The notes below the pieces were generated by a model. It had not been told where the DNA came from. It ran no database searches and saw only the letters and a list, made by a program, of their open reading frames with translations. Below, one piece after another: positions 51,626 to 58,641 of a DNA stretch of 64,000 nucleotides (position 1 is its first letter; each line of letters begins with the position of its first letter). The translations under genes were made by a program, and so were the position numbers. Source of the stretch: Shigella phage JK32; the sequence record MK962753.1; one strand, written 5' to 3'.

Positions 51626-54394
51626 ATGGCAGATTTAAACAGAATCCAATTTAAACGCACTAGCACTAAAGGTCGTCGACCTGATGCTAGTACGATGAAT
51701 CCGGGGGAATTGGCAATCAACCTTGCGGATCAATACATGCTCACTAAAAATGATTCCGGTGCTATTATCAATTTAAGTTGTCCTCCGGTTTATGACCGCG
51801 ATGTTACAATGGCTGGTAAAGTTAAAGGTAATAATTATATCTTAAGTAAAACCGCTAACTATCTGGAAGATCAGACAGCGCGAGATCTTAACTACTTTGG
51901 TGCTTTCCGTACCAATGGTCTTGATGGTTTTCTTGAACTCACGCTAAACGTTCCTCATTCTTCTGGTGTTCAGCATGGTCGAGGATTTACTTTCCAGTAT
52001 GGACACACTGGATCGCGTGTAGAAACTTATGGATATAATAGAGAAGGTCAAAAAGCATTTAGCTATAAAATGTATCACGAAGGTGATAAACCAACTCCAG
52101 GAGAATTGAACGTTTATAGCAAACAAGAAATTGACCGTATGTTTGTTAAAAACGTTAAACTTGCTACAGTTCCTGGTGATACAGTTGAAGGCTATTTTAA
52201 ATTAGCAACTGCAATGATTCCACAAAACGGTCGTAGTGTATTTTTCCGTATTCATGGTGGTAACGGATATAACGTTACTGCATACGATCAAGTTGATATT
52301 GTAGAAATTGTTATTCGCAGTGGAAATAATCGCCCTAAAGGTGTTAACGTTATTGCATATCGCCGAAATACAAACAAATCATTTGATGTTTTGGCTGTTA
52401 ATACTTCTGGTGATAACTATGATATCTATGTTAAATATCAGCGTTACACTGATAACGTTATTGTTGAATTTGGTAAAAGTGTTGATGTTAATCTGGTAGT
52501 TCATGACGTTCCAGATTTTGTTGCTGAACGTCCTGCTGGCGATAATGTTATTGGCGGTCGTGCTGTAACTCTTTTTAACACAGAAAATAAGCGTGGTGTG
52601 TTGAGTTTTGACGATAACACACAAAACAGCTATGATATTGTTCATATGAGTAATGATAAAGGTACTGGTCGGAAATATATTCGTAAATTCCGTAGTAACT
52701 ATAATGAAATGATCTGGCATGAGACGGTTCAAGGTTCCAGTTATCGTCTGGCTACTGGTAGCACTGATGCTCAGGAAATTATAACTATTGAATCTAGTAG
52801 CTCAATTGCTGGAACTCATAAAGGTAATATTATTTCTGGTCGTATGCTGTTAAATGGCGGATCTAATGCCATTACACTACGCCGACCTGCTGGTCAGTCT
52901 AATCATATTGCGTTTCAAGATAATCGTACTGGAGATATTACCCGTCAAGGATGGATCGGTTATGCAAACGCCGATACTGACGTTTTTGAATGGTATAGTG
53001 ATGTAGGTGGCAGTTCTATTCGTCAACATATCGACGGACAGATCGAATTTCAGACAGGTAACATGAAGCGAGTCTATACCAACGGTCAATTCATTTCTTT
53101 ATATGCTGATGGCTTCCGTACTGTATATGGTAACTATGGTTCATGGTGGCGAAATGACGGTAGTAACGTTTATCTGATGAGCACAAAATCAGGCGACACT
53201 ATGGGTCCGTGGAATACCTTTAGGCCGTTCATCTATAGCCTAGCCAATGGTAACGTTACATTGGGGGGTAGTGATGCTGGCAACCATTTAATGCGTCTCA
53301 ATAATGAAAATCGTCAAGTAGAAATAAATGCAACAACACATTTAGGGTCTCGATTATATTGGGAACGTAGCGAAGGATCGGCATCTAGATTTTTTATTAA
53401 GAATTGGGGTAATGGAACTTCTCGCGCTCAAGTGTGGGAACTTGCTGACGAGACAGGTTATCATGTATATTCTCAGCGAAACGACGCGGGTGTTCTTCAA
53501 TTCCGTACTGCTGGTAATTTTGAGACTGGTGGTGATGCTCAAGTAAACGGGACTTTACTTGTCACCAATGTTCTTCGTACAAATAACCAAATACAGATTT
53601 ATCGCGATAACAACAAAGAACTCTGGTTTAAGGATGCTAATGGTACTAACCGTGGTGTTATCTGGGGTGATAGCACAGGTCAAATGCGCATTCGAAACTA
53701 TAACAGCGGAGAATTTGACCATGTTTTCCAGACTGGTATGATTCGCTTAGAACGTGGGTCTGCAAACGGTAGCGACCGTGGTTTGATTCGCGGAGAAGTA
53801 CAAGGTGGTGCATGGTCAGACTGGAAAATTCGTGCGGCTGGATTGTTGGTTGATTGTCCTAATGCTCAAACTTCCGCATATAACGTATGGAAAGCGACCA
53901 AATGGGGTTTAGACCACATCGCGGCAATGGGCGTTCATGTTCCTAGTGGTGTTATTACTAATGCTATGGCACGTCTTCATATTCATACCACAAACTTTGA
54001 CTTTAACGCCTCCGGTGATTTCCAAGCAGGTCGTAATGGTAATTTTAACGATGTGTACATTCGTTCTGATGCTCGCCTTAAAATCAATAAGGAAGAGTAT
54101 AAAGAGAATGCCACTGATAAAGTTAATCGCTTGACGGTATACACCTATGACAAGGTTAAATCTTTAACCGACCGTACTGTCATTGCTCATGAAGTTGGTA
54201 TTATTGCACAGGATCTTGAGAAAGAATTGCCGGAAGCCGTAACAACTTCTAAGATCGGCGATCCAGATAAACCAGAAGAGATCTTAACAATTTCTAACTC
54301 TGCTGTCAACGCTCTTTTAATTAAGGCGTTTCAGGAAATGAGCGAAGAATTGAAAGCCGTTAAAGCTGAACTAGCGGAACTTAAAAAGAATTAA
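51626..54394 (+). CDS. 37: long tail fibre distal subunit gp37 with C-terminal intramolecular chaperone-like domain
   Basis: N-terminus MADLNRIQFKRT..RRPDAS..GELAINL matches T4 gp37 start; C-terminal ~120 aa carries IRSDARLKINKEEY and a terminal coiled coil. Confidence 0.85.
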   Translation: MADLNRIQFKRTSTKGRRPDASTMNPGELAINLADQYMLTKNDSGAIINLSCPPVYDRDVTMAGKVKGNNYILSKTANYLEDQTARDLNYFGAFRTNGLDGFLELTLNVPHSSGVQHGRGFTFQYGHTGSRVETYGYNREGQKAFSYKMYHEGDKPTPGELNVYSKQEIDRMFVKNVKLATVPGDTVEGYFKLATAMIPQNGRSVFFRIHGGNGYNVTAYDQVDIVEIVIRSGNNRPKGVNVIAYRRNTNKSFDVLAVNTSGDNYDIYVKYQRYTDNVIVEFGKSVDVNLVVHDVPDFVAERPAGDNVIGGRAVTLFNTENKRGVLSFDDNTQNSYDIVHMSNDKGTGRKYIRKFRSNYNEMIWHETVQGSSYRLATGSTDAQEIITIESSSSIAGTHKGNIISGRMLLNGGSNAITLRRPAGQSNHIAFQDNRTGDITRQGWIGYANADTDVFEWYSDVGGSSIRQHIDGQIEFQTGNMKRVYTNGQFISLYADGFRTVYGNYGSWWRNDGSNVYLMSTKSGDTMGPWNTFRPFIYSLANGNVTLGGSDAGNHLMRLNNENRQVEINATTHLGSRLYWERSEGSASRFFIKNWGNGTSRAQVWELADETGYHVYSQRNDAGVLQFRTAGNFETGGDAQVNGTLLVTNVLRTNNQIQIYRDNNKELWFKDANGTNRGVIWGDSTGQMRIRNYNSGEFDHVFQTGMIRLERGSANGSDRGLIRGEVQGGAWSDWKIRAAGLLVDCPNAQTSAYNVWKATKWGLDHIAAMGVHVPSGVITNAMARLHIHTTNFDFNASGDFQAGRNGNFNDVYIRSDARLKINKEEYKENATDKVNRLTVYTYDKVKSLTDRTVIAHEVGIIAQDLEKELPEAVTTSKIGDPDKPEEILTISNSAVNALLIKAFQEMSEELKAVKAELAELKKN

Positions 54395-54435
54395 GGAAAA
54401 ATCCCAGGGAAGGGAACTACTAAGGAGAAACGGCT

Positions 54436-54675
54436 ATGGTCTATAATATCGTCATTGGTGCTTTGTCTAGTTTCGGAATGAAATTATTGTCAAAGTTAAT
54501 TAGTGAAAAGATGCTCACTAAAATTTTCTTCTACTGCGCTCGTCGTCTTGCGGCGTATACCAATACGCCAATTGATGATCGTTTTGTGGAAGAACTTTAT
54601 AAGGAGTTTAATAAAGATCAATCAGAAGATAGCAACGAGCAAGATAAACCTAGTGATAGTCAACTACCTAAATAA
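54436..54675 (+). CDS. hypothetical small protein (79 aa) in the position of gene 38
   Basis: SD AAGGAGA; hydrophobic N-terminal segment, acidic C-terminus. Confidence 0.5.
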   Translation: MVYNIVIGALSSFGMKLLSKLISEKMLTKIFFYCARRLAAYTNTPIDDRFVEELYKEFNKDQSEDSNEQDKPSDSQLPK

Positions 54676-54708
54676 GAGTACACTGTCATAGTTATCTTAG
54701 GGCATTAT

Positions 54709-55365
54709 ATGCAAGTTTCTGAAAAAGAGAAAGACTTTGCTATCTCAAATGTCCTGCGCGCTATTTTCACAACTAAAAGCACGGAGTTGCTCGTACTTCG
54801 TGTTTTTGCTGCCGTCGTGTTGTCCATATTAGCATTTGTCGTTTATAGCAAAAACGAGTTATTTGCCTTGTATAAAGAGACTCGTTATGAGACTTATGCT
54901 CACGTTCTCCAGGTAGAGAAAGACCGCAATTTTGATAATGCAGCACAGGAGCAGTTACAGATAGTTCATGTGTCGGCTGATGCCGATTTTTCTGCTGTTT
55001 TTAGTTTTCGTCCGAAAAACCTAAACTATTTTGTTGATTTGGTGGCATATGAAGGAAAGCTGCCGCATACAATCGATGAAAAGAATTTAGGCGGATTCCC
55101 TATCAATAAAACGAGTGAAGAATATCGTAGGCATCTTTTAGGTAAATCATATTTTACCGATAAAGATTTCCAGTATATTCCATCGAGGGAGAAAAAATTA
55201 GAGACTATCGATATAGGGTTTATGTATTCTTGTCCTATATTCAATCTCGATAATGTCTATTCTGGTAGTATCGCCATTGCATGGAAGAATAAACCGGATA
55301 TTGACATTGAGAATTTAGATACTCTTTGCAATCAATCTGCCAGAATCCTCGGAAGGATTAGATAA
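54709..55365 (+). CDS. t: holin
   Basis: 218 aa; strong match to remembered T4 holin T (LQIVH.S.ADFSAV.SFRPKNLNYFVD..AYEGKLP, C-terminal ARILGR). Confidence 0.85.
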   Translation: MQVSEKEKDFAISNVLRAIFTTKSTELLVLRVFAAVVLSILAFVVYSKNELFALYKETRYETYAHVLQVEKDRNFDNAAQEQLQIVHVSADADFSAVFSFRPKNLNYFVDLVAYEGKLPHTIDEKNLGGFPINKTSEEYRRHLLGKSYFTDKDFQYIPSREKKLETIDIGFMYSCPIFNLDNVYSGSIAIAWKNKPDIDIENLDTLCNQSARILGRIR

Positions 55366-55370
55366 CTTAA

Positions 55371-55404
55371 AGGGGAAGCCTTTCGGCCTCCCCTTCTTTT
55401 TTAT
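55371..55404 (+). terminator. rho-independent terminator after t
   Basis: AGGGGAAGCCTTTCGGCCTCCCCT hairpin then TTCTTTTTTATT. Confidence 0.7.
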
Positions 55405-55649
55405 TGGCGCATAGAAGCCCCTGAATCACATTTTGACGCTGTATGATGAAAACAGGTAGCGTACCAGTCATCTGCTTGTTTGTCTTCGTCAGAAAACGCG
55501 TAATTTCGTTGTACGCCGTTTTCTACTTTGACCAGCGCAATAGCTGTTTCTGGAAGATCAATCAATCGGACAAAATCGCCATCTTCCCACTCTACACGAG
55601 CAATATCATAGCCCATCTCAAAGTATACAATCGCTTGTTCTAATTTCAT
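55401..55649 (-). CDS. hypothetical small protein (82 aa)
   Basis: ATGA coupling to upstream gene. Confidence 0.5.
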   Translation of the reverse strand: MKLEQAIVYFEMGYDIARVEWEDGDFVRLIDLPETAIALVKVENGVQRNYAFSDEDKQADDWYATCFHHTASKCDSGASMRQ

Positions 55650-55969
55650 TCTGGAAACTTCCCGTAAACATTCTCTGCCAGCTTACGTGCATCTTTTACA
55701 ATATCTTTCATGTAATGACTATAATTTTTAGCTAGATCAATGATGCAATCAACAAAGAAGTAATAGCGTCGCAGTGCTACCAGCTCAACATCTTCGAGAT
55801 GACCATTTTCTCCAATCGCTGAAATATGTTTAAATTCCTTTCGGATCGCGTCCATCGCTACATTAACTTCTTTTATAATATCTTTCGTATTATATGCACC
55901 TCGACTAATCAAAATTTTGGTTAGGTCTTCTGCTTTTTCGTGAAAGTTGTCAATTTCAAACTCGATCAT
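55646..55969 (-). CDS. hypothetical protein (107 aa), tandem paralog pair member 1
   Basis: ATG at 55969; C-terminus ARKLAENVYGKF parallels ARIMTENIFGRF of 56084..56416. Confidence 0.55.
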   Translation of the reverse strand: MIEFEIDNFHEKAEDLTKILISRGAYNTKDIIKEVNVAMDAIRKEFKHISAIGENGHLEDVELVALRRYYFFVDCIIDLAKNYSHYMKDIVKDARKLAENVYGKFPE

Positions 55970-56081
55970 AATCACCTCTCATAATTTCACGCTGTTGTGT
56001 CAACATTTTTTCGTGGTTTGCTAATTCTATACATTGTAATAGCATAACCAGTGCAATTTTCAATGATTCATCATCTTTCAT
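55956..56081 (-). CDS. possible 41-aa micro-ORF
   Basis: Hand-translated MKDDESLKIALVMLLQCIELANHEK...; starts 2 nt after stop of upstream gene; weak SD. Confidence 0.25.
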   Translation of the reverse strand: MKDDESLKIALVMLLQCIELANHEKMLTQQREIMRGDYDRV

Positions 56082-56083
56082 AA

Positions 56084-56416
56084 TCAAAATCTACCGAAAA
56101 TATTCTCTGTCATAATTCTTGCTTCGTCGATTATTTTCGTCATGTTCATGGTGTAGTTATGATCATTTAGTGCCTTAATGACAACGAGCAAGGAATCTAA
56201 AAACACTCGATAACGGGTATATTCTACGCTATTTGTGAATACCGATGTTTTCTCTACTTTATCGATCAGATAGCCTAAAACCGATAGCGCCTCGTTTACT
56301 TCCCTTGTTACTTTATCGGCGCTAAACAGCACCGGATAAAGACGCGGTGTGATTAACCGCGCTGCCTCTTTCAATTCGGTCGCTTTCCATGATTCATATT
56401 TGTCATAGTTAAACAT
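56084..56416 (-). CDS. hypothetical protein (110 aa), tandem paralog pair member 2
   Basis: SD AAGGA; see pair member 1. Confidence 0.55.
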   Translation of the reverse strand: MFNYDKYESWKATELKEAARLITPRLYPVLFSADKVTREVNEALSVLGYLIDKVEKTSVFTNSVEYTRYRVFLDSLLVVIKALNDHNYTMNMTKIIDEARIMTENIFGRF

Positions 56417-56428
56417 TGTATAATGTCC

Positions 56429-56761
56429 TTACAGATGAAAACCTGTTACAATTACCGCATCGATTGTACCGCTAGGAATAAACGGTTCGCCCTCTTTTAT
56501 TTCAACTTTGAATTGATGCCATTTTGCTAATACTTCTTCCGGTACACCCAGCGATTCGGCGTCTGCTTTAGTTTCATCCATAATCCAACTAGGCTGCATG
56601 AGAGCATAGTTTACATAGTCCATTTCTGGGGTCATGTCATCAATGTTAATATATTTGCAGTTGACTCGTTTCAGAATTTCAAATTCTTTATTGTCAACCT
56701 GTACCATGTATAATTCAGTAGTTTCTGGAATCAGTTCCCACACAATCAGTACATTTTTCAT
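56429..56761 (-). CDS. hypothetical protein (110 aa)
   Basis: SD GAGGTGA. Confidence 0.55.
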   Translation of the reverse strand: MKNVLIVWELIPETTELYMVQVDNKEFEILKRVNCKYINIDDMTPEMDYVNYALMQPSWIMDETKADAESLGVPEEVLAKWHQFKVEIKEGEPFIPSGTIDAVIVTGFHL

Positions 56762-56769
56762 AGTTCACC

Positions 56770-57138
56770 TCACTTAACAAAGATTTTCTTTAATGCTTTC
56801 AGGATCGTTGCCTCCGGCGCTTCTTCCGGTGGAGGAAGCAATTCTACCACTTCATCCTCCAACTCGATATAGTCTACCAGATATTCTACATAGAATGCAA
56901 GTGCTTCCATGAAATTAAATGCTACATCCGATTCACCACAAGCGCCTACATGCATTGTATAAACATCACTGCGATCAAGTTTGTGGATACTTCCTAGATA
57001 GTTTCTGTTATACCAGACTTCCCACACTTTCAGCTTTCCGGTTTTGGTTGCTGTTTTATAATCGGTTTCGTAGTTGTGCAATTGACGTTGCAGATCATTG
57101 ATAATAACACATTTTTCGTAATTGTTTTGAATTTCCAT
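56770..57138 (-). CDS. hypothetical protein (122 aa)
   Basis: SD GAGGA. Confidence 0.55.
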   Translation of the reverse strand: MEIQNNYEKCVIINDLQRQLHNYETDYKTATKTGKLKVWEVWYNRNYLGSIHKLDRSDVYTMHVGACGESDVAFNFMEALAFYVEYLVDYIELEDEVVELLPPPEEAPEATILKALKKIFVK

Positions 57139-57148
57139 GATGTAATCC

Positions 57149-57340
57149 TCACTTATCGTTAAGAAGTTCTAAAACTTTCTGTCGTACTTTGTCAATATTA
57201 GTTGATTCAAAAACTGTACGGTATCCCCAGCTTTGACCGTATGATCGCGAGCAATCCCCATATCCCCATTGTTCAACCTGATAGTATTCAAGGAATGGGT
57301 GTTGCCGAACTATGATACCATCACGATTAAAAATTACCAT
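57149..57340 (-). CDS. hypothetical small protein (63 aa)
   Basis: SD GAGGA. Confidence 0.5.
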   Translation of the reverse strand: MVIFNRDGIIVRQHPFLEYYQVEQWGYGDCSRSYGQSWGYRTVFESTNIDKVRQKVLELLNDK

Positions 57341-57363
57341 AATATAATCCTCAAGTCAACAAC

Positions 57364-57645
57364 TTATTTTCGGTTGTACTTCTGCCACTTTCGGTAATAC
57401 TGCTTGTAAACCTGTTTTGCGTTTTCACCATCTTTACTATACATGTTATCTACCATCAAGTCAATAAGACCTTCCGGTGTCTGGTAGTTCCCCGCTCGAA
57501 TAAGTTCTTTAATTAAAGTGTCCTGATGATCTTTGTATACTACGTTAATGATGGTCTTTTCTGCTTTCTTCGTCCCGATCATCCGGTGATTAGCTTTCAT
57601 CGCATCCCACCAATCTTTTGTGATCTTCATGTTATTGAATTGCAT
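57364..57645 (-). CDS. hypothetical basic protein (93 aa)
   Basis: SD AAGAGG. Confidence 0.55.
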   Translation of the reverse strand: MQFNNMKITKDWWDAMKANHRMIGTKKAEKTIINVVYKDHQDTLIKELIRAGNYQTPEGLIDLMVDNMYSKDGENAKQVYKQYYRKWQKYNRK

Positions 57646-57656
57646 AATTTAACCTC

Positions 57657-58415
57657 TTACTTGCACACGTATTGATCTACATCAATTGCGCCACCGAATG
57701 TAGGATGACGTTTTTCAAATCGAATAGTTCCGTCGTTTGGTTCGAAAACGGAGTATTCATATAGATCTTTCTTGCCAACATTCTTATAAAACCCGCCTTT
57801 AGTCATAACGGTTTCTTGTACGTTTGCTTTGTGTACGTTGTATTCGTCAATGTATACAAAATCAACCATCTTCCCATTTTTAATGGTTACTTTAAGATCT
57901 CCTGGTTGGTTTCCATATTTTGCATACAGTGGAGCTTCTTTAATTTTGGTGGAAATTCCATCTTTCATACTCCACTCATAACGAACGGTGCATTGATAGG
58001 TAAAAGTTTCGACCTTCGGTTCTTCCACCACTTTTTCTTCCTGTTTCGGTTGTTCTTCGTCAACCTTCACGGAAGTCTCTGAATCGCTTTCTGACGCGGT
58101 TTCTTCTTTAGGTAATACATTCATCAAGTTTTGGATTTGAGCGTTGTATACAGCCTCCAGTGGCTGAATCTGCCCGATATTGATCATTGTATCACGAACA
58201 GTTTTATTCCAGTTGCGTTGCTCTTGTTTCAGAGACGGATCAATCTTAACAGCCTTAACATATACTTCATGAAGTTTCGAATCCAGTGCGGAGATTGACT
58301 CATTAGCACAAATAAACTTCTCTGATTTGGTAGTGGCTTTAGCGCAATCAAAGGACGCAGCATTAGCACCGAAAGCAGTAGCGGAAAGAACGATAGCAGC
58401 GATAATGTTTTTCAT
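57657..58415 (-). CDS. secreted DUF1311-like (LprI/YecT N-terminal domain-like) protein
   Basis: 252 aa; signal peptide with AxA site; SFDCAKA ... FICANESISALD ... QRNW matches DUF1311 signature; SD GAGGAA. Confidence 0.65.
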   Translation of the reverse strand: MKNIIAAIVLSATAFGANAASFDCAKATTKSEKFICANESISALDSKLHEVYVKAVKIDPSLKQEQRNWNKTVRDTMINIGQIQPLEAVYNAQIQNLMNVLPKEETASESDSETSVKVDEEQPKQEEKVVEEPKVETFTYQCTVRYEWSMKDGISTKIKEAPLYAKYGNQPGDLKVTIKNGKMVDFVYIDEYNVHKANVQETVMTKGGFYKNVGKKDLYEYSVFEPNDGTIRFEKRHPTFGGAIDVDQYVCK

Positions 58416-58449
58416 AATATATTCCTCAGTGTTTTGTCTTGATTGGAGT

Positions 58450-58478
58450 ATCTTACTACTCCATTAATCTGGTGTCAA
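58450..58478 (-). promoter_or_regulatory. early promoter with inverted repeat around -10
   Basis: TTGACA, 17 nt, TAAGAT; GGAGTA ... TACTCC inverted repeat. Confidence 0.6.
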
Positions 58479-58485
58479 CTATTTT

Positions 58486-58641
58486 TTAAATTTCTTCTAC
58501 ACTAAAGTCTTCAATGTTGTTGTGCTCGGAGAACGTTGCCAGACCAGCATTCCATGCATCATCCTCAGAGAAGAATACACCGTAACGTTCATATCCTTTA
58601 GCGCCTTCAAATTTAATCATTAATTTGTGAGTATGTTTCAT
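58486..58641 (-). CDS. hypothetical small protein (51 aa)
   Basis: ATG at 58641 with SD GGAGAATC; track ORF extends upstream into the promoter. Confidence 0.45.
   Translation of the reverse strand: MKHTHKLMIKFEGAKGYERYGVFFSEDDAWNAGLATFSEHNNIEDFSVEEI

What the first reader, a model, noticed from the sequence alone, without database searches (positions are those of the whole stretch)
55646..56416. Tandem paralog pair of ~108-aa proteins downstream of holin t
ORFs 55646..55969 and 56084..56416 share length and C-terminal blocks (IDLAKNYSHYMKDIVKDARKLAENVYGKF versus VIKALNDHNYTMNMTKIIDEARIMTENIFGRF); a 41-aa micro-ORF may lie between them. T4 has asiA/arn/motA in this region; none is obviously present, so this region appears remodelled.
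Basis: partly seen in the sequence, partly recalled or inferred. Interest (0 to 1): 0.4.

Follow-up and report, generated by a model that had tools for sequence, protein, structure and literature searches.

The report
Orphan paralog pair beside Tad2-like gene
Two diverged copies of a small four-helix protein known only from RB49-like (Krischvirus) coliphages sit in an early accessory operon, directly coupled to a Tad2-like anti-defence gene, at a spot where near-identical phages carry alternative versions. Their function is untested, and this is a fairly ordinary case of accessory-gene turnover in T4-type phages.

Summary
ORF A (55646..55969) and ORF B (56084..56416), both on the minus strand, are true paralogs. 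Both match PHROG 9457, an A-only HMM finds B, and both AlphaFold models are four-helix bundles.

The window is a Krischvirus (RB49-like) genome. No homolog of asiA, motA or arn was found between t and gene 52, or in RB49 1-100 kb plus the window. The lack of motA and asiA in RB49 is already published.

The family is an orphan. It has five 50%-identity representatives among 1.84 billion proteins, no Pfam, PDB or fold match, and no relative in bacterial genomes.

New here:
- A is always translationally coupled to a nearly invariant Tad2-like gene.
- A and B behave as exchangeable cassettes. There are at least six deeply diverged A alleles and two B alleles, and 10 of 58 records lack B. Flanks stay 93-100% identical, and each allele is under purifying selection.
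- The 41-codon micro-ORF is kept open but evolves as if unconstrained.

Most likely role (about 0.35-0.4, inferred): a non-enzymatic early counter-defence or host-interaction protein, possibly sponge-like. Interest is low to moderate.

The parts
56084..56416 (-). Paralog B, 110 aa, four-helix bundle (PHROG 9457). Present in 48 of 58 Krischvirus records, in two allele classes about 70% identical.
   Evidence: dN/dS 0.19-0.33
55956..56081 (-). Micro-ORF, 41 aa (PHROG 17009). Its ATG lies 2 nt after B's TGA, and its 3' end overlaps A's Shine-Dalgarno and start by 14 nt. Coding status is uncertain.
   Evidence: Found in 45 records, only at this locus. 2 synonymous-only versus 5 amino-acid-changing variable codons, spread evenly over codon positions. 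Not a relic of the A/B family. No RNA structure, z = -0.66.
55646..55969 (-). Paralog A, 107 aa, four-helix bundle (PHROG 9457). Present in all 58 Krischvirus records as at least 4 deeply diverged alleles, plus 2 more in metagenomes. Its stop overlaps the start of the Tad2-like gene (ATGA).
55401..55649 (-). Tad2-like gene (82 aa, PF11195, 28.4 bits against a gathering score of 25). Translationally coupled to A. 96-100% identical in all 58 records.
55370..55395 (.). GC-rich stem-loop between the convergent t and Tad2-like genes. It is annotated as a bidirectional terminator in relatives and marks the end of the early operon.
   Evidence: sequence; annotation of GEC-3S, TB34 and Makalu_003
58450..58478 (-). 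Sigma-70-type early promoter (TTGACA, 17 nt spacer, TAAGAT) ahead of the nine-gene operon 58415..55401 that ends with B, the micro-ORF, A and the Tad2-like gene.
   Evidence: the equivalent promoter is annotated in GEC-3S
56429..56761 (-). Conserved upstream gene (110 aa, PHROG 4658). It forms the left homology arm of the variable cassette block.
   Evidence: dS 0.07-0.08 against kvi and ECD7

Best explanation
SHOWN. A and B are two anciently diverged paralogs of an orphan protein of about 105-115 aa that folds as a four-helix bundle. The family was found only in RB49-like (Krischvirus) phages and in metagenomic contigs that share their gene order at this locus. Both genes lie at the promoter-distal end of an operon that runs from a sigma-70-type promoter to a terminator and sits in the hyperplastic region between t and gene 52. 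The gene order is B, then the micro-ORF, then A, then the Tad2-like gene, each closely abutting or overlapping the next. The A slot and the B slot behave as exchangeable cassettes: genomes that are 93-100% identical on both sides carry A alleles only 46-54% identical in protein to the window's A. B is present in one of two forms or absent. A and B alleles reassort freely, and every allele is under purifying selection.

INFERRED (probability about 0.35-0.4). The proteins are non-enzymatic early accessory factors that act by stoichiometric binding in counter-defence or host interaction. The family-invariant residues (N36, F72, Y83, R95, E99, N100, G103) lie in helices 2-4 and the C-terminal cap, and helix 4 plus the cap is the most conserved segment. 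I infer that these residues make up the core or a common binding site. Helix 1, helix 2 and the loop between helices 2 and 3 are hypervariable, and I infer that they set specificity. Two sub-versions are possible. In one, the protein is a signal-sequestering 'sponge' working alongside the Tad2-like protein, by analogy with the helical sponge families that are often fused to Tad2 domains. In the other, it inhibits or decoys a polymorphic host defence protein.
For: - Paralogy and fold.
- Restricted distribution: 5 representatives among 1.84 billion; 58 and 48 phage records, all Krischvirus; nothing in 185,579 species genomes within the limits of the search pattern.
- Early operon: promoter; annotated promoters and terminators.
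- Coupling to the Tad2-like gene: seen in every locus inspected, including the diverged metagenomic contig L007, and in the coordinate pairs.
- Cassette behaviour: identity falls to 30-75% exactly across A (about 55975 to 55690) while flanks stay at 93-100%. B is cleanly absent in ECD7 and Makalu_003.
- Depth of divergence: between allele classes dS runs from 0.45 to saturation with dN/dS 0.11-0.33, against dS 0.07-0.26 in the flanking genes.
- Constraint within one allele class: A shows 11 synonymous and 0 non-synonymous variable codons across 8 genomes.
- Reassortment: the RB49-type B occurs with A1, A3 and A5. The kvi-type B' occurs with A3 and A4. No B accompanies A2.
- Conservation map.
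- Literature: Tad2 (PF11195) is frequently fused to other sponge families, including the short alpha-helical Sequestin family PF21825 (bioRxiv 10.1101/2025.07.12.664507).
Against: - There is no functional evidence of any kind.
- The 'Tad2-like' label rests on one Pfam hit just above the gathering score, with no sequence match in the PDB.
- Adjacency inside a long operon of unrelated ORFans is weak guilt by association.
- A is mildly acidic (net charge -4) and B is about neutral, whereas the cited paper's search pipeline looks for positively charged pockets.
- Deep allelic diversity is typical of T4-type hyperplastic regions in general (PMC2839356), so it is not specific to arms-race genes.
- Oligomeric state and pockets could not be modelled.
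Confidence: 0.4

Rival explanations
1. Dedicated partner of the Tad2-like protein. A, and perhaps B, would be a chaperone, regulator or co-subunit that binds the invariant Tad2-like protein through A's conserved helix 4 and C-terminal tail. A would have no target of its own.
For: A's stop and the Tad2-like start overlap by 4 nt (ATGA) in every genome inspected, including the diverged contig L007. The last 15 or so codons of A lie in the same conserved block as the Tad2-like gene. Helix 4 and the tail are the most conserved parts of the family.
Against: The Tad2-like protein is 96-100% identical across records, while two thirds of A varies down to about 40% identity. A pure partner would not be expected to diversify like this. 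B carries the same conserved motifs but is dispensable in 10 records. None of the Tad2 papers looked at here was seen to mention a required partner (not searched for specifically). The fused A-Tad2 model could not be run.
Confidence: 0.15
2. Functional replacement of AsiA/MotA. A and/or B would be small helical early proteins that bind host RNA polymerase or sigma-70 and reprogramme transcription in a phage lineage that lacks asiA and motA.
For: The genomic position matches. T4 asiA is the first gene after t on the opposite strand, and the pair lies within 300-700 nt of that spot. The proteins are small, helical and encoded in a transcription unit behind an early-type (sigma-70) promoter. RB49 has no known middle-mode system (PMC1524935).
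Confidence: 0.06
3. Generic hyperplastic-region ORFans whose role is unrelated to host defence, for example phage-phage competition, metabolism tuning or a niche-specific function. Their diversity would reflect only the high recombination and gene flux of T4-type hyperplastic regions.
For: The t-to-52 interval is made entirely of ORFans in narrow PHROGs of unknown function. RB49 and phi1 differ mainly by ORFan insertion, deletion and replacement in such regions (PMC2839356). No known functional domain was found.
Against: The flanking ORFans in the same operon are not hypervariable (dS 0.07-0.26), so the turnover is specific to the A and B slots. Strong purifying selection within alleles, together with the persistence of several old alleles, points to selection maintaining diversity rather than neutral flux.
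Confidence: 0.3
4. The ORFs are not real genes, and the similarity is a non-coding duplication or chance.
For: None beyond the lack of annotation. The micro-ORF alone does show a near-neutral substitution pattern.
Against: dN/dS is 0.1-0.3 across deeply diverged alleles. A shows 11 synonymous and 0 non-synonymous changes. Both fold predictions are confident. The Shine-Dalgarno and start context is conserved.
Confidence: 0.02

Closest known systems
Helical sponge partners of Tad2: Sequestin (PF21825) and Acb4 (PF13876), often fused to Tad2 (bioRxiv 10.1101/2025.07.12.664507)
   Same: A small phage-only protein, predicted all-alpha, genetically welded to a PF11195 (Tad2-like) unit and expressed together with it.
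   Different: No sequence match to PF21825 or PF13876 for any of 19 members at E <= 10. The protein is 105-115 aa rather than 60-80 aa. It is a separate, overlapping ORF rather than a fusion. No oligomer or pocket model is available. A is mildly acidic.
T4 AsiA (anti-sigma-70 factor, PF09010 / PHROG 1166)
   Same: A small all-helical protein encoded just beyond holin t on the opposite strand; AsiA is an early T4 protein, and early expression of A and B is inferred here from the promoter.
   Different: No sequence similarity at any level. The fold is four long helices, and AsiA does not appear among the structural neighbours. The family is hypervariable and B is partly dispensable.
ORFan cassettes of RB49/phi1 hyperplastic regions shuffled via PeSL promoter/stem-loop elements (Arbiol et al. 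2010, PMC2839356)
   Same: Same phage lineage and the same kind of region. ORFans of unknown function are inserted, deleted or replaced between otherwise near-identical genomes.
   Different: There is no promoter/stem-loop element between these genes. The exchange boundaries lie inside an operon: at the conserved GAGAGGT(T)GATTATG Shine-Dalgarno/start junction, within the last 15 or so codons of A, and in the 12-nt spacer ahead of B.
Acb2 / T4 Vs.4 (small helical cyclic-nucleotide sponge; from my own knowledge)
   Same: A helical T-even-type phage protein of about 90-110 aa with no enzymatic motif that acts by sequestration.

Membership tests
PHROG 9457 (uncharacterised Krischvirus family) | Full-length match to the family HMM | tested here: met
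   A scores 8e-57 over 1-107 of 107 positions. B scores 1e-42 over 1-105 of 107. The metagenomic alleles P0029 and P0031 score 1e-19 and 1e-17.
AsiA (PF09010 / PHROG 1166) | Sequence match to the AsiA profile or to T4 AsiA | tested here: not met
   No Pfam hit at E <= 0.1 for the ORFs or at E <= 10 for 19 family members. No PHROG 1166 hit, while T4 AsiA scores 1e-41 against it. tblastn and phmmer found nothing significant.
AsiA (PF09010 / PHROG 1166) | AsiA-like fold | tested here: not met
AsiA (PF09010 / PHROG 1166) | Binding to sigma-70 region 4 | not testable with these tools
Two-hybrid or pull-down experiments are needed.
MotA (PHROG 1345) and Arn (PHROG 3151) | Sequence match anywhere between t and gene 52, or in the genome proxy | tested here: not met
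   The literature agrees for motA (PMC1524935).
Tad2 (PF11195), for the neighbouring gene 55401..55649 | Pfam match above the gathering score | tested here: met
   28.4 bits against a cut-off of 25, E = 2.4e-6, covering 1-71 of 73 profile positions. The precomputed PF11195 label on P0032 and on the L007 neighbour agrees.
Tad2 (PF11195), for the neighbouring gene 55401..55649 | Tad2 fold, tetramer and gcADPR-binding pocket | not tested
   No sequence hit in the PDB. The alignment has only 3 sequences, so no model was attempted.
Sequestin (PF21825) / Acb4 (PF13876) sponges | Sequence match to the family profile | tested here: not met
   No hit for 19 members at E <= 10.
Sequestin (PF21825) / Acb4 (PF13876) sponges | Homo-oligomer with a ligand pocket at the protomer interfaces | not testable with these tools
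PeSL-flanked ORFan cassette (Arbiol 2010) | Early promoter plus stem-loop element directly flanking the exchanged ORF | tested here: not met
   No promoter or terminator site lies between 56761 and 55401 on the minus strand apart from a weak 9-of-12 match at 55649. The spacers are 12 nt, 2 nt, an overlap and an overlap.

The most novel reading that the evidence does not exclude
A and B found a new family of phage counter-defence proteins. They would be either an immune-signal sponge that teams up with the Tad2-like protein, as a split analogue of the Tad2-Sequestin and Tad2-Acb4 fusions, or direct inhibitors of a polymorphic E. coli defence protein. The six or more A alleles and two B alleles would then be specificity variants maintained by balancing selection.
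Probability: 0.25. Interest if true: 0.6.

Novelty: new member of a known kind. Interest (0 to 1): 0.3.

Why it matters
If the pair is a counter-defence module, it would add a new helical family to the known phage anti-defence proteins. It would also come with a ready-made natural allele series (A1 to A6, B and B', or no B) in otherwise isogenic therapeutic-type coliphages, which is convenient for mapping host-range determinants.

If not, it remains one more lineage-restricted ORFan family. Its main value would be to illustrate exchange of a single gene inside an operon without PeSL elements. The absence of asiA and motA is already known and adds nothing new.

Tried and rejected
1. Micro-ORF as a decayed third copy of the family. 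The A/B HMM scores it 0.4 bits, no better than 500 shuffles. Rejected.
2. The B-to-A spacer as a structured RNA. Folding gives z = -0.66, and the two sub-threshold Rfam matches in 55300-58600 both lie at the t/Tad2-like terminator, not in the spacer. Rejected.
3. A as the detached N-terminal half of longer Tad2-family proteins. The window's Tad2-like protein matches only positions 110-210 of the 211-position PHROG 1048 profile. However, A and B show no PHROG 1048 signal even at E <= 10. Not supported.
5. The afdb50 fold library was not available.
6. Scans of IMG/VR and of GTDB genomes with family patterns found no relatives. A scan with the broader alignment was impossible.
7. The word-index search with the Tad2-like protein returned only close relatives, so contexts of distant Tad2 homologs could not be compared.
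8. Conservation of A's C-terminal block as a mere recombination boundary. This holds only for the last 15 or so codons. Codons 67-107 have pS 0.50-0.58 with dN/dS 0.17-0.25, so they are truly constrained.
9. Literature searches for Krischvirus or RB49 with anti-defence or Tad2 found nothing. The Desplats 2002 paper is not held.

Full report
**What the window is.** The 1.9 kb around the finding is 97.7-98.4% identical to the best-matching Krischvirus genomes (RB49, phi1, JSE, GEC-3S, kaaroe and others). All 58 matching phage records belong to that genus-level group. The local gene order is gp37 (51626..54394, +), a small 'Dc5' ORF (+) and holin t (54709..55365, +). A convergent minus-strand gene string then runs from 58415 down to 55401 and ends at a GC-rich stem-loop (55370..55395) shared with t. 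Relatives annotate that stem-loop as a bidirectional terminator. A sigma-70-type promoter (TTGACA, 17 nt, TAAGAT) lies at 58478..58450 on the minus strand, and GEC-3S annotates an early promoter at the same place. The finding's ORFs are therefore the promoter-distal genes of an early polycistronic unit, in this order:
- an LprI-like secreted protein
- a 93-aa ORF
- a 63-aa ORF
- a 122-aa ORF
- a 110-aa ORF (PHROG 4658)
- B
- the micro-ORF
- A
- the Tad2-like gene

**Checking the observation.** Both ORFs exist at the stated coordinates, on the minus strand. A starts at ATG 55969, 6 nt after a GAGAGG Shine-Dalgarno. A and B share 35% identity over the C-terminal 43 residues (BLASTP E = 2e-7), and the relationship is full-length:
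- Both match PHROG 9457 end to end, at 8e-57 and 1e-42.
- An 18-sequence alignment has 14 invariant columns spread along the protein.
- An HMM built only from A-type alleles aligns B residues 13-110 at 32.7 bits, against 12 bits for the best of 1000 shuffles.
- AlphaFold models are both up-down four-helix bundles. A has pLDDT 86 and pTM 0.80. B has pLDDT 91.6 and pTM 0.85.
- In the BFVD library the only significant neighbours of the A model are the ECD7 A allele (TM 0.93) and the JEP8 B copy (TM 0.75, E = 9e-4).

**The T4 comparison.** T4 carries asiA, asiA.1, arn, arn.1-4, motA and motA.1 between t and gene 52. None of these has a detectable counterpart here:
- tblastn against the window found nothing.
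- tblastn and phmmer against RB49 1-100 kb plus the window, which together stand in for a whole genome, found nothing significant.
- Pfam scans of all ORFs from t to gene 52 found nothing.
- PHROG assignments show none in 1166 (AsiA), 3151 (Arn) or 1345 (MotA).

This agrees with the literature. No motA ortholog or middle-promoter consensus could be found in RB49, and asiA orthologs are reported for RB69, 44RR, Aeh1 and KVP40 but not RB49 (PMC1524935). The only trace of T4 synteny is at profile level: the 122-aa ORF (56770..57138) and T4 Arn.4 both hit PHROG 1594, although BLASTP sees nothing between them.

**How isolated the family is.** A profile search of 1.84 billion cluster representatives returned five proteins. 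Four are A-type or B-type proteins. The fifth is a 528-aa repetitive protein that is almost certainly spurious. Word-indexed searches found 4 clusters for A and 24 for B. Most are unnamed metagenomic or assembly-derived proteins, several on contigs the size of T4-type genomes. The negative results were consistent:
- Pfam: none for 19 members even at E <= 10.
- NCBIfam and PADLOC: no significant match.
- PDB sequence searches: nothing meaningful.
- Foldseek against the PDB: best E of 0.67.
- A pattern scan of 185,579 bacterial and archaeal species genomes: none.

**Comparative anatomy.** This is the main new result. tblastn finds an A-type gene in all 58 Krischvirus records, 43 at >= 95% identity and 15 at < 60%. 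It finds a B-type gene in 48 records, 45 at >= 95% and 3 at about 70%. It finds the micro-ORF in 45. The Tad2-like gene is in all 58 at 96-100%. These counts include a few GenBank/RefSeq duplicates. The loci I inspected show five architectures:
- B, micro-ORF, A1, Tad2-like: this window, RB49, GEC-3S and TB34.
- B, micro-ORF (36 aa), A3, Tad2-like: SSG23.
- B', A4 (115 aa), Tad2-like, with no micro-ORF: kvi.
- A2, Tad2-like, with no B: ECD7 and Makalu_003.
- Metagenomic contigs with B plus A5 (L008), B' plus A3 (L010), and an intermediate A6 followed by a diverged Tad2-like gene and holin (L007).

A alleles are 27-54% identical between classes, with the A2/A3 subgroup at 71-83%. B and B' are about 69% identical, and A against B is about 25%. 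A 30-nt sliding comparison shows flanks at 93-100% identity. Identity collapses to 30-75% precisely across A, from its Shine-Dalgarno and start at about 55975 to about 55690, some 15 codons before its stop. The B block is bounded at 56426 and 56086. B and A alleles occur in several different combinations, so they are not co-adapted pairs. The exchange junctions are a conserved GAGAGGT(T)GATTATG motif and the 3' end of A, not the PeSL promoter/stem-loop elements described for RB49 and phi1 (PMC2839356).

**Selection.** Between allele classes dS runs from 0.45 to saturation, while dN/dS stays at 0.11-0.33 for both A and B. This includes A's C-terminal 41 codons (pS 0.50-0.58, dN/dS 0.17-0.25), so that block is truly constrained and is not just a recombination arm. 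The flanking genes show dS of 0.07-0.26 in the same genome pairs. Variable codons across eight RB49-type genomes were as follows:

| Gene | Synonymous-only | Amino-acid-changing |
|---|---|---|
| A | 11 | 0 |
| B | 11 | 4 |
| Tad2-like | 14 | 3 |
| Micro-ORF | 2 | 5 |

The micro-ORF's variable sites are spread evenly over the three codon positions. A and B are therefore real genes under purifying selection, present as old alleles that move between young backbones. The micro-ORF stays open in all nine genomes inspected, sits only at this locus and is flanked by a GATTATGA repeat. It has no convincing Shine-Dalgarno and evolves as if unconstrained. It is neither a relic of the family nor a structured RNA.

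**Sequence features.** The family-invariant residues, in A numbering, are A13, N36, F72, Y83, R95, E99, N100 and G103. Helix 4 and the C-terminal cap (..AR..(A/T)EN(I/V)(Y/F/H)G..) are the most conserved parts. Helix 1, helix 2 and the loop between helices 2 and 3, which carries indels, are the most variable. I saw no signal peptide, membrane segment or Cys/His metal-binding motif in the two sequences. A is mildly acidic (pI 5.6) and B is about neutral.

**Mechanism.** Nothing computational assigns a function, so what follows is inference. The proteins are small and show no recognisable catalytic motif. They are encoded in an operon driven by an early-type promoter and are restricted to one phage lineage. 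Their slots turn over far faster than neighbouring genes, while each allele is conserved. A is always welded, through an ATGA overlap, to a PF11195 Tad2-like gene (28.4 bits against a gathering score of 25). Tad2 domains are often found fused to other immune-signal sponges, including the short alpha-helical Sequestin family. That association has been used successfully to discover sponges (bioRxiv 10.1101/2025.07.12.664507).

I therefore favour, at about 0.35-0.4, a stoichiometric binding role in counter-defence or host interaction. This could be a sponge acting alongside the Tad2-like protein or an inhibitor of a polymorphic host factor.

The rivals are:
- A dedicated partner of the Tad2-like protein (0.15).
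- A generic hyperplastic-region ORFan unrelated to defence (0.3).
- A functional AsiA analogue (0.06). This fits poorly with hypervariability against an invariant sigma-70, and with the absence of any sequence or fold resemblance.
- Non-coding sequence (0.02, refuted for A and B).

**Verdict.** The pair is a lineage-restricted orphan paralog family, already binned as PHROG 9457. Its cassette polymorphism and coupling to a Tad2-like gene have, as far as I could find, not been reported. It is a reasonable but unproven anti-defence candidate. Interest is 0.3.

Noticed in passing
window 55401..55649 (-): An 82-aa Tad2-like (PF11195, Thoeris anti-defence 2-like) gene lies immediately after holin t on the opposite strand. 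It is present at 96-100% identity in all 58 Krischvirus records. It has no sequence hit in the PDB, and I found no literature on it for this genus.
   Followed up: partly
window 57657..58415 (-): The first gene of the same early operon encodes a 252-aa protein with an apparent N-terminal signal peptide and an LprI (lysozyme-inhibitor-like) domain (PF07007, E = 3e-5). This looks like a secreted or periplasmic early protein of unknown role.
   Followed up: no
window 56770..57138 (-): This 122-aa ORF and T4 Arn.4 both match PHROG 1594 (7e-25 and 1e-26), and the L010 homolog carries PF26821 'Phage_T4_Y16F'. It is the only trace of T4 gene content between t and gene 52. Pairwise BLASTP finds no alignment.
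   Followed up: partly
window 55950..56095 (-): The 114-nt micro-ORF module is bracketed by a GATTATGA direct repeat. Every A allele is preceded by the same GAGAGGT(T)GATTATG junction. A single extra T in SSG23 shortens the micro-ORF from 41 to 36 codons.
   Followed up: partly
window 54395..54708 (+); locus L005 4579..5358: In this window only the small 'Dc5' ORF (79 aa, PHROG 402) lies between gp37 and t. Phage kvi carries an extra receptor-recognition (gp38-like) gene there, and RB49 annotates its gp38-like adhesin far away (RB49p079, about 45 kb). The tail-fibre adhesin locus is therefore also polymorphic in this genus.
   Followed up: no
protein P0022: An 81-aa fragment 98% identical to B is deposited at NCBI as a hypothetical protein of Bacillus atrophaeus. 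It is most likely coliphage contamination of that assembly.
   Followed up: no
locus L010 3488..3739: The Tad2-like protein on this metagenomic contig diverges abruptly over its last 22 or so residues, right at the contig end. This may be an assembly chimera rather than a real variant.
   Followed up: no
window 57436..57464 (-): A 10-of-12 sigma-70-like promoter match (TTGACT, 17 nt, TATAGT) lies inside the 93-aa ORF. It could be an internal promoter for the distal half of the operon.
   Followed up: no
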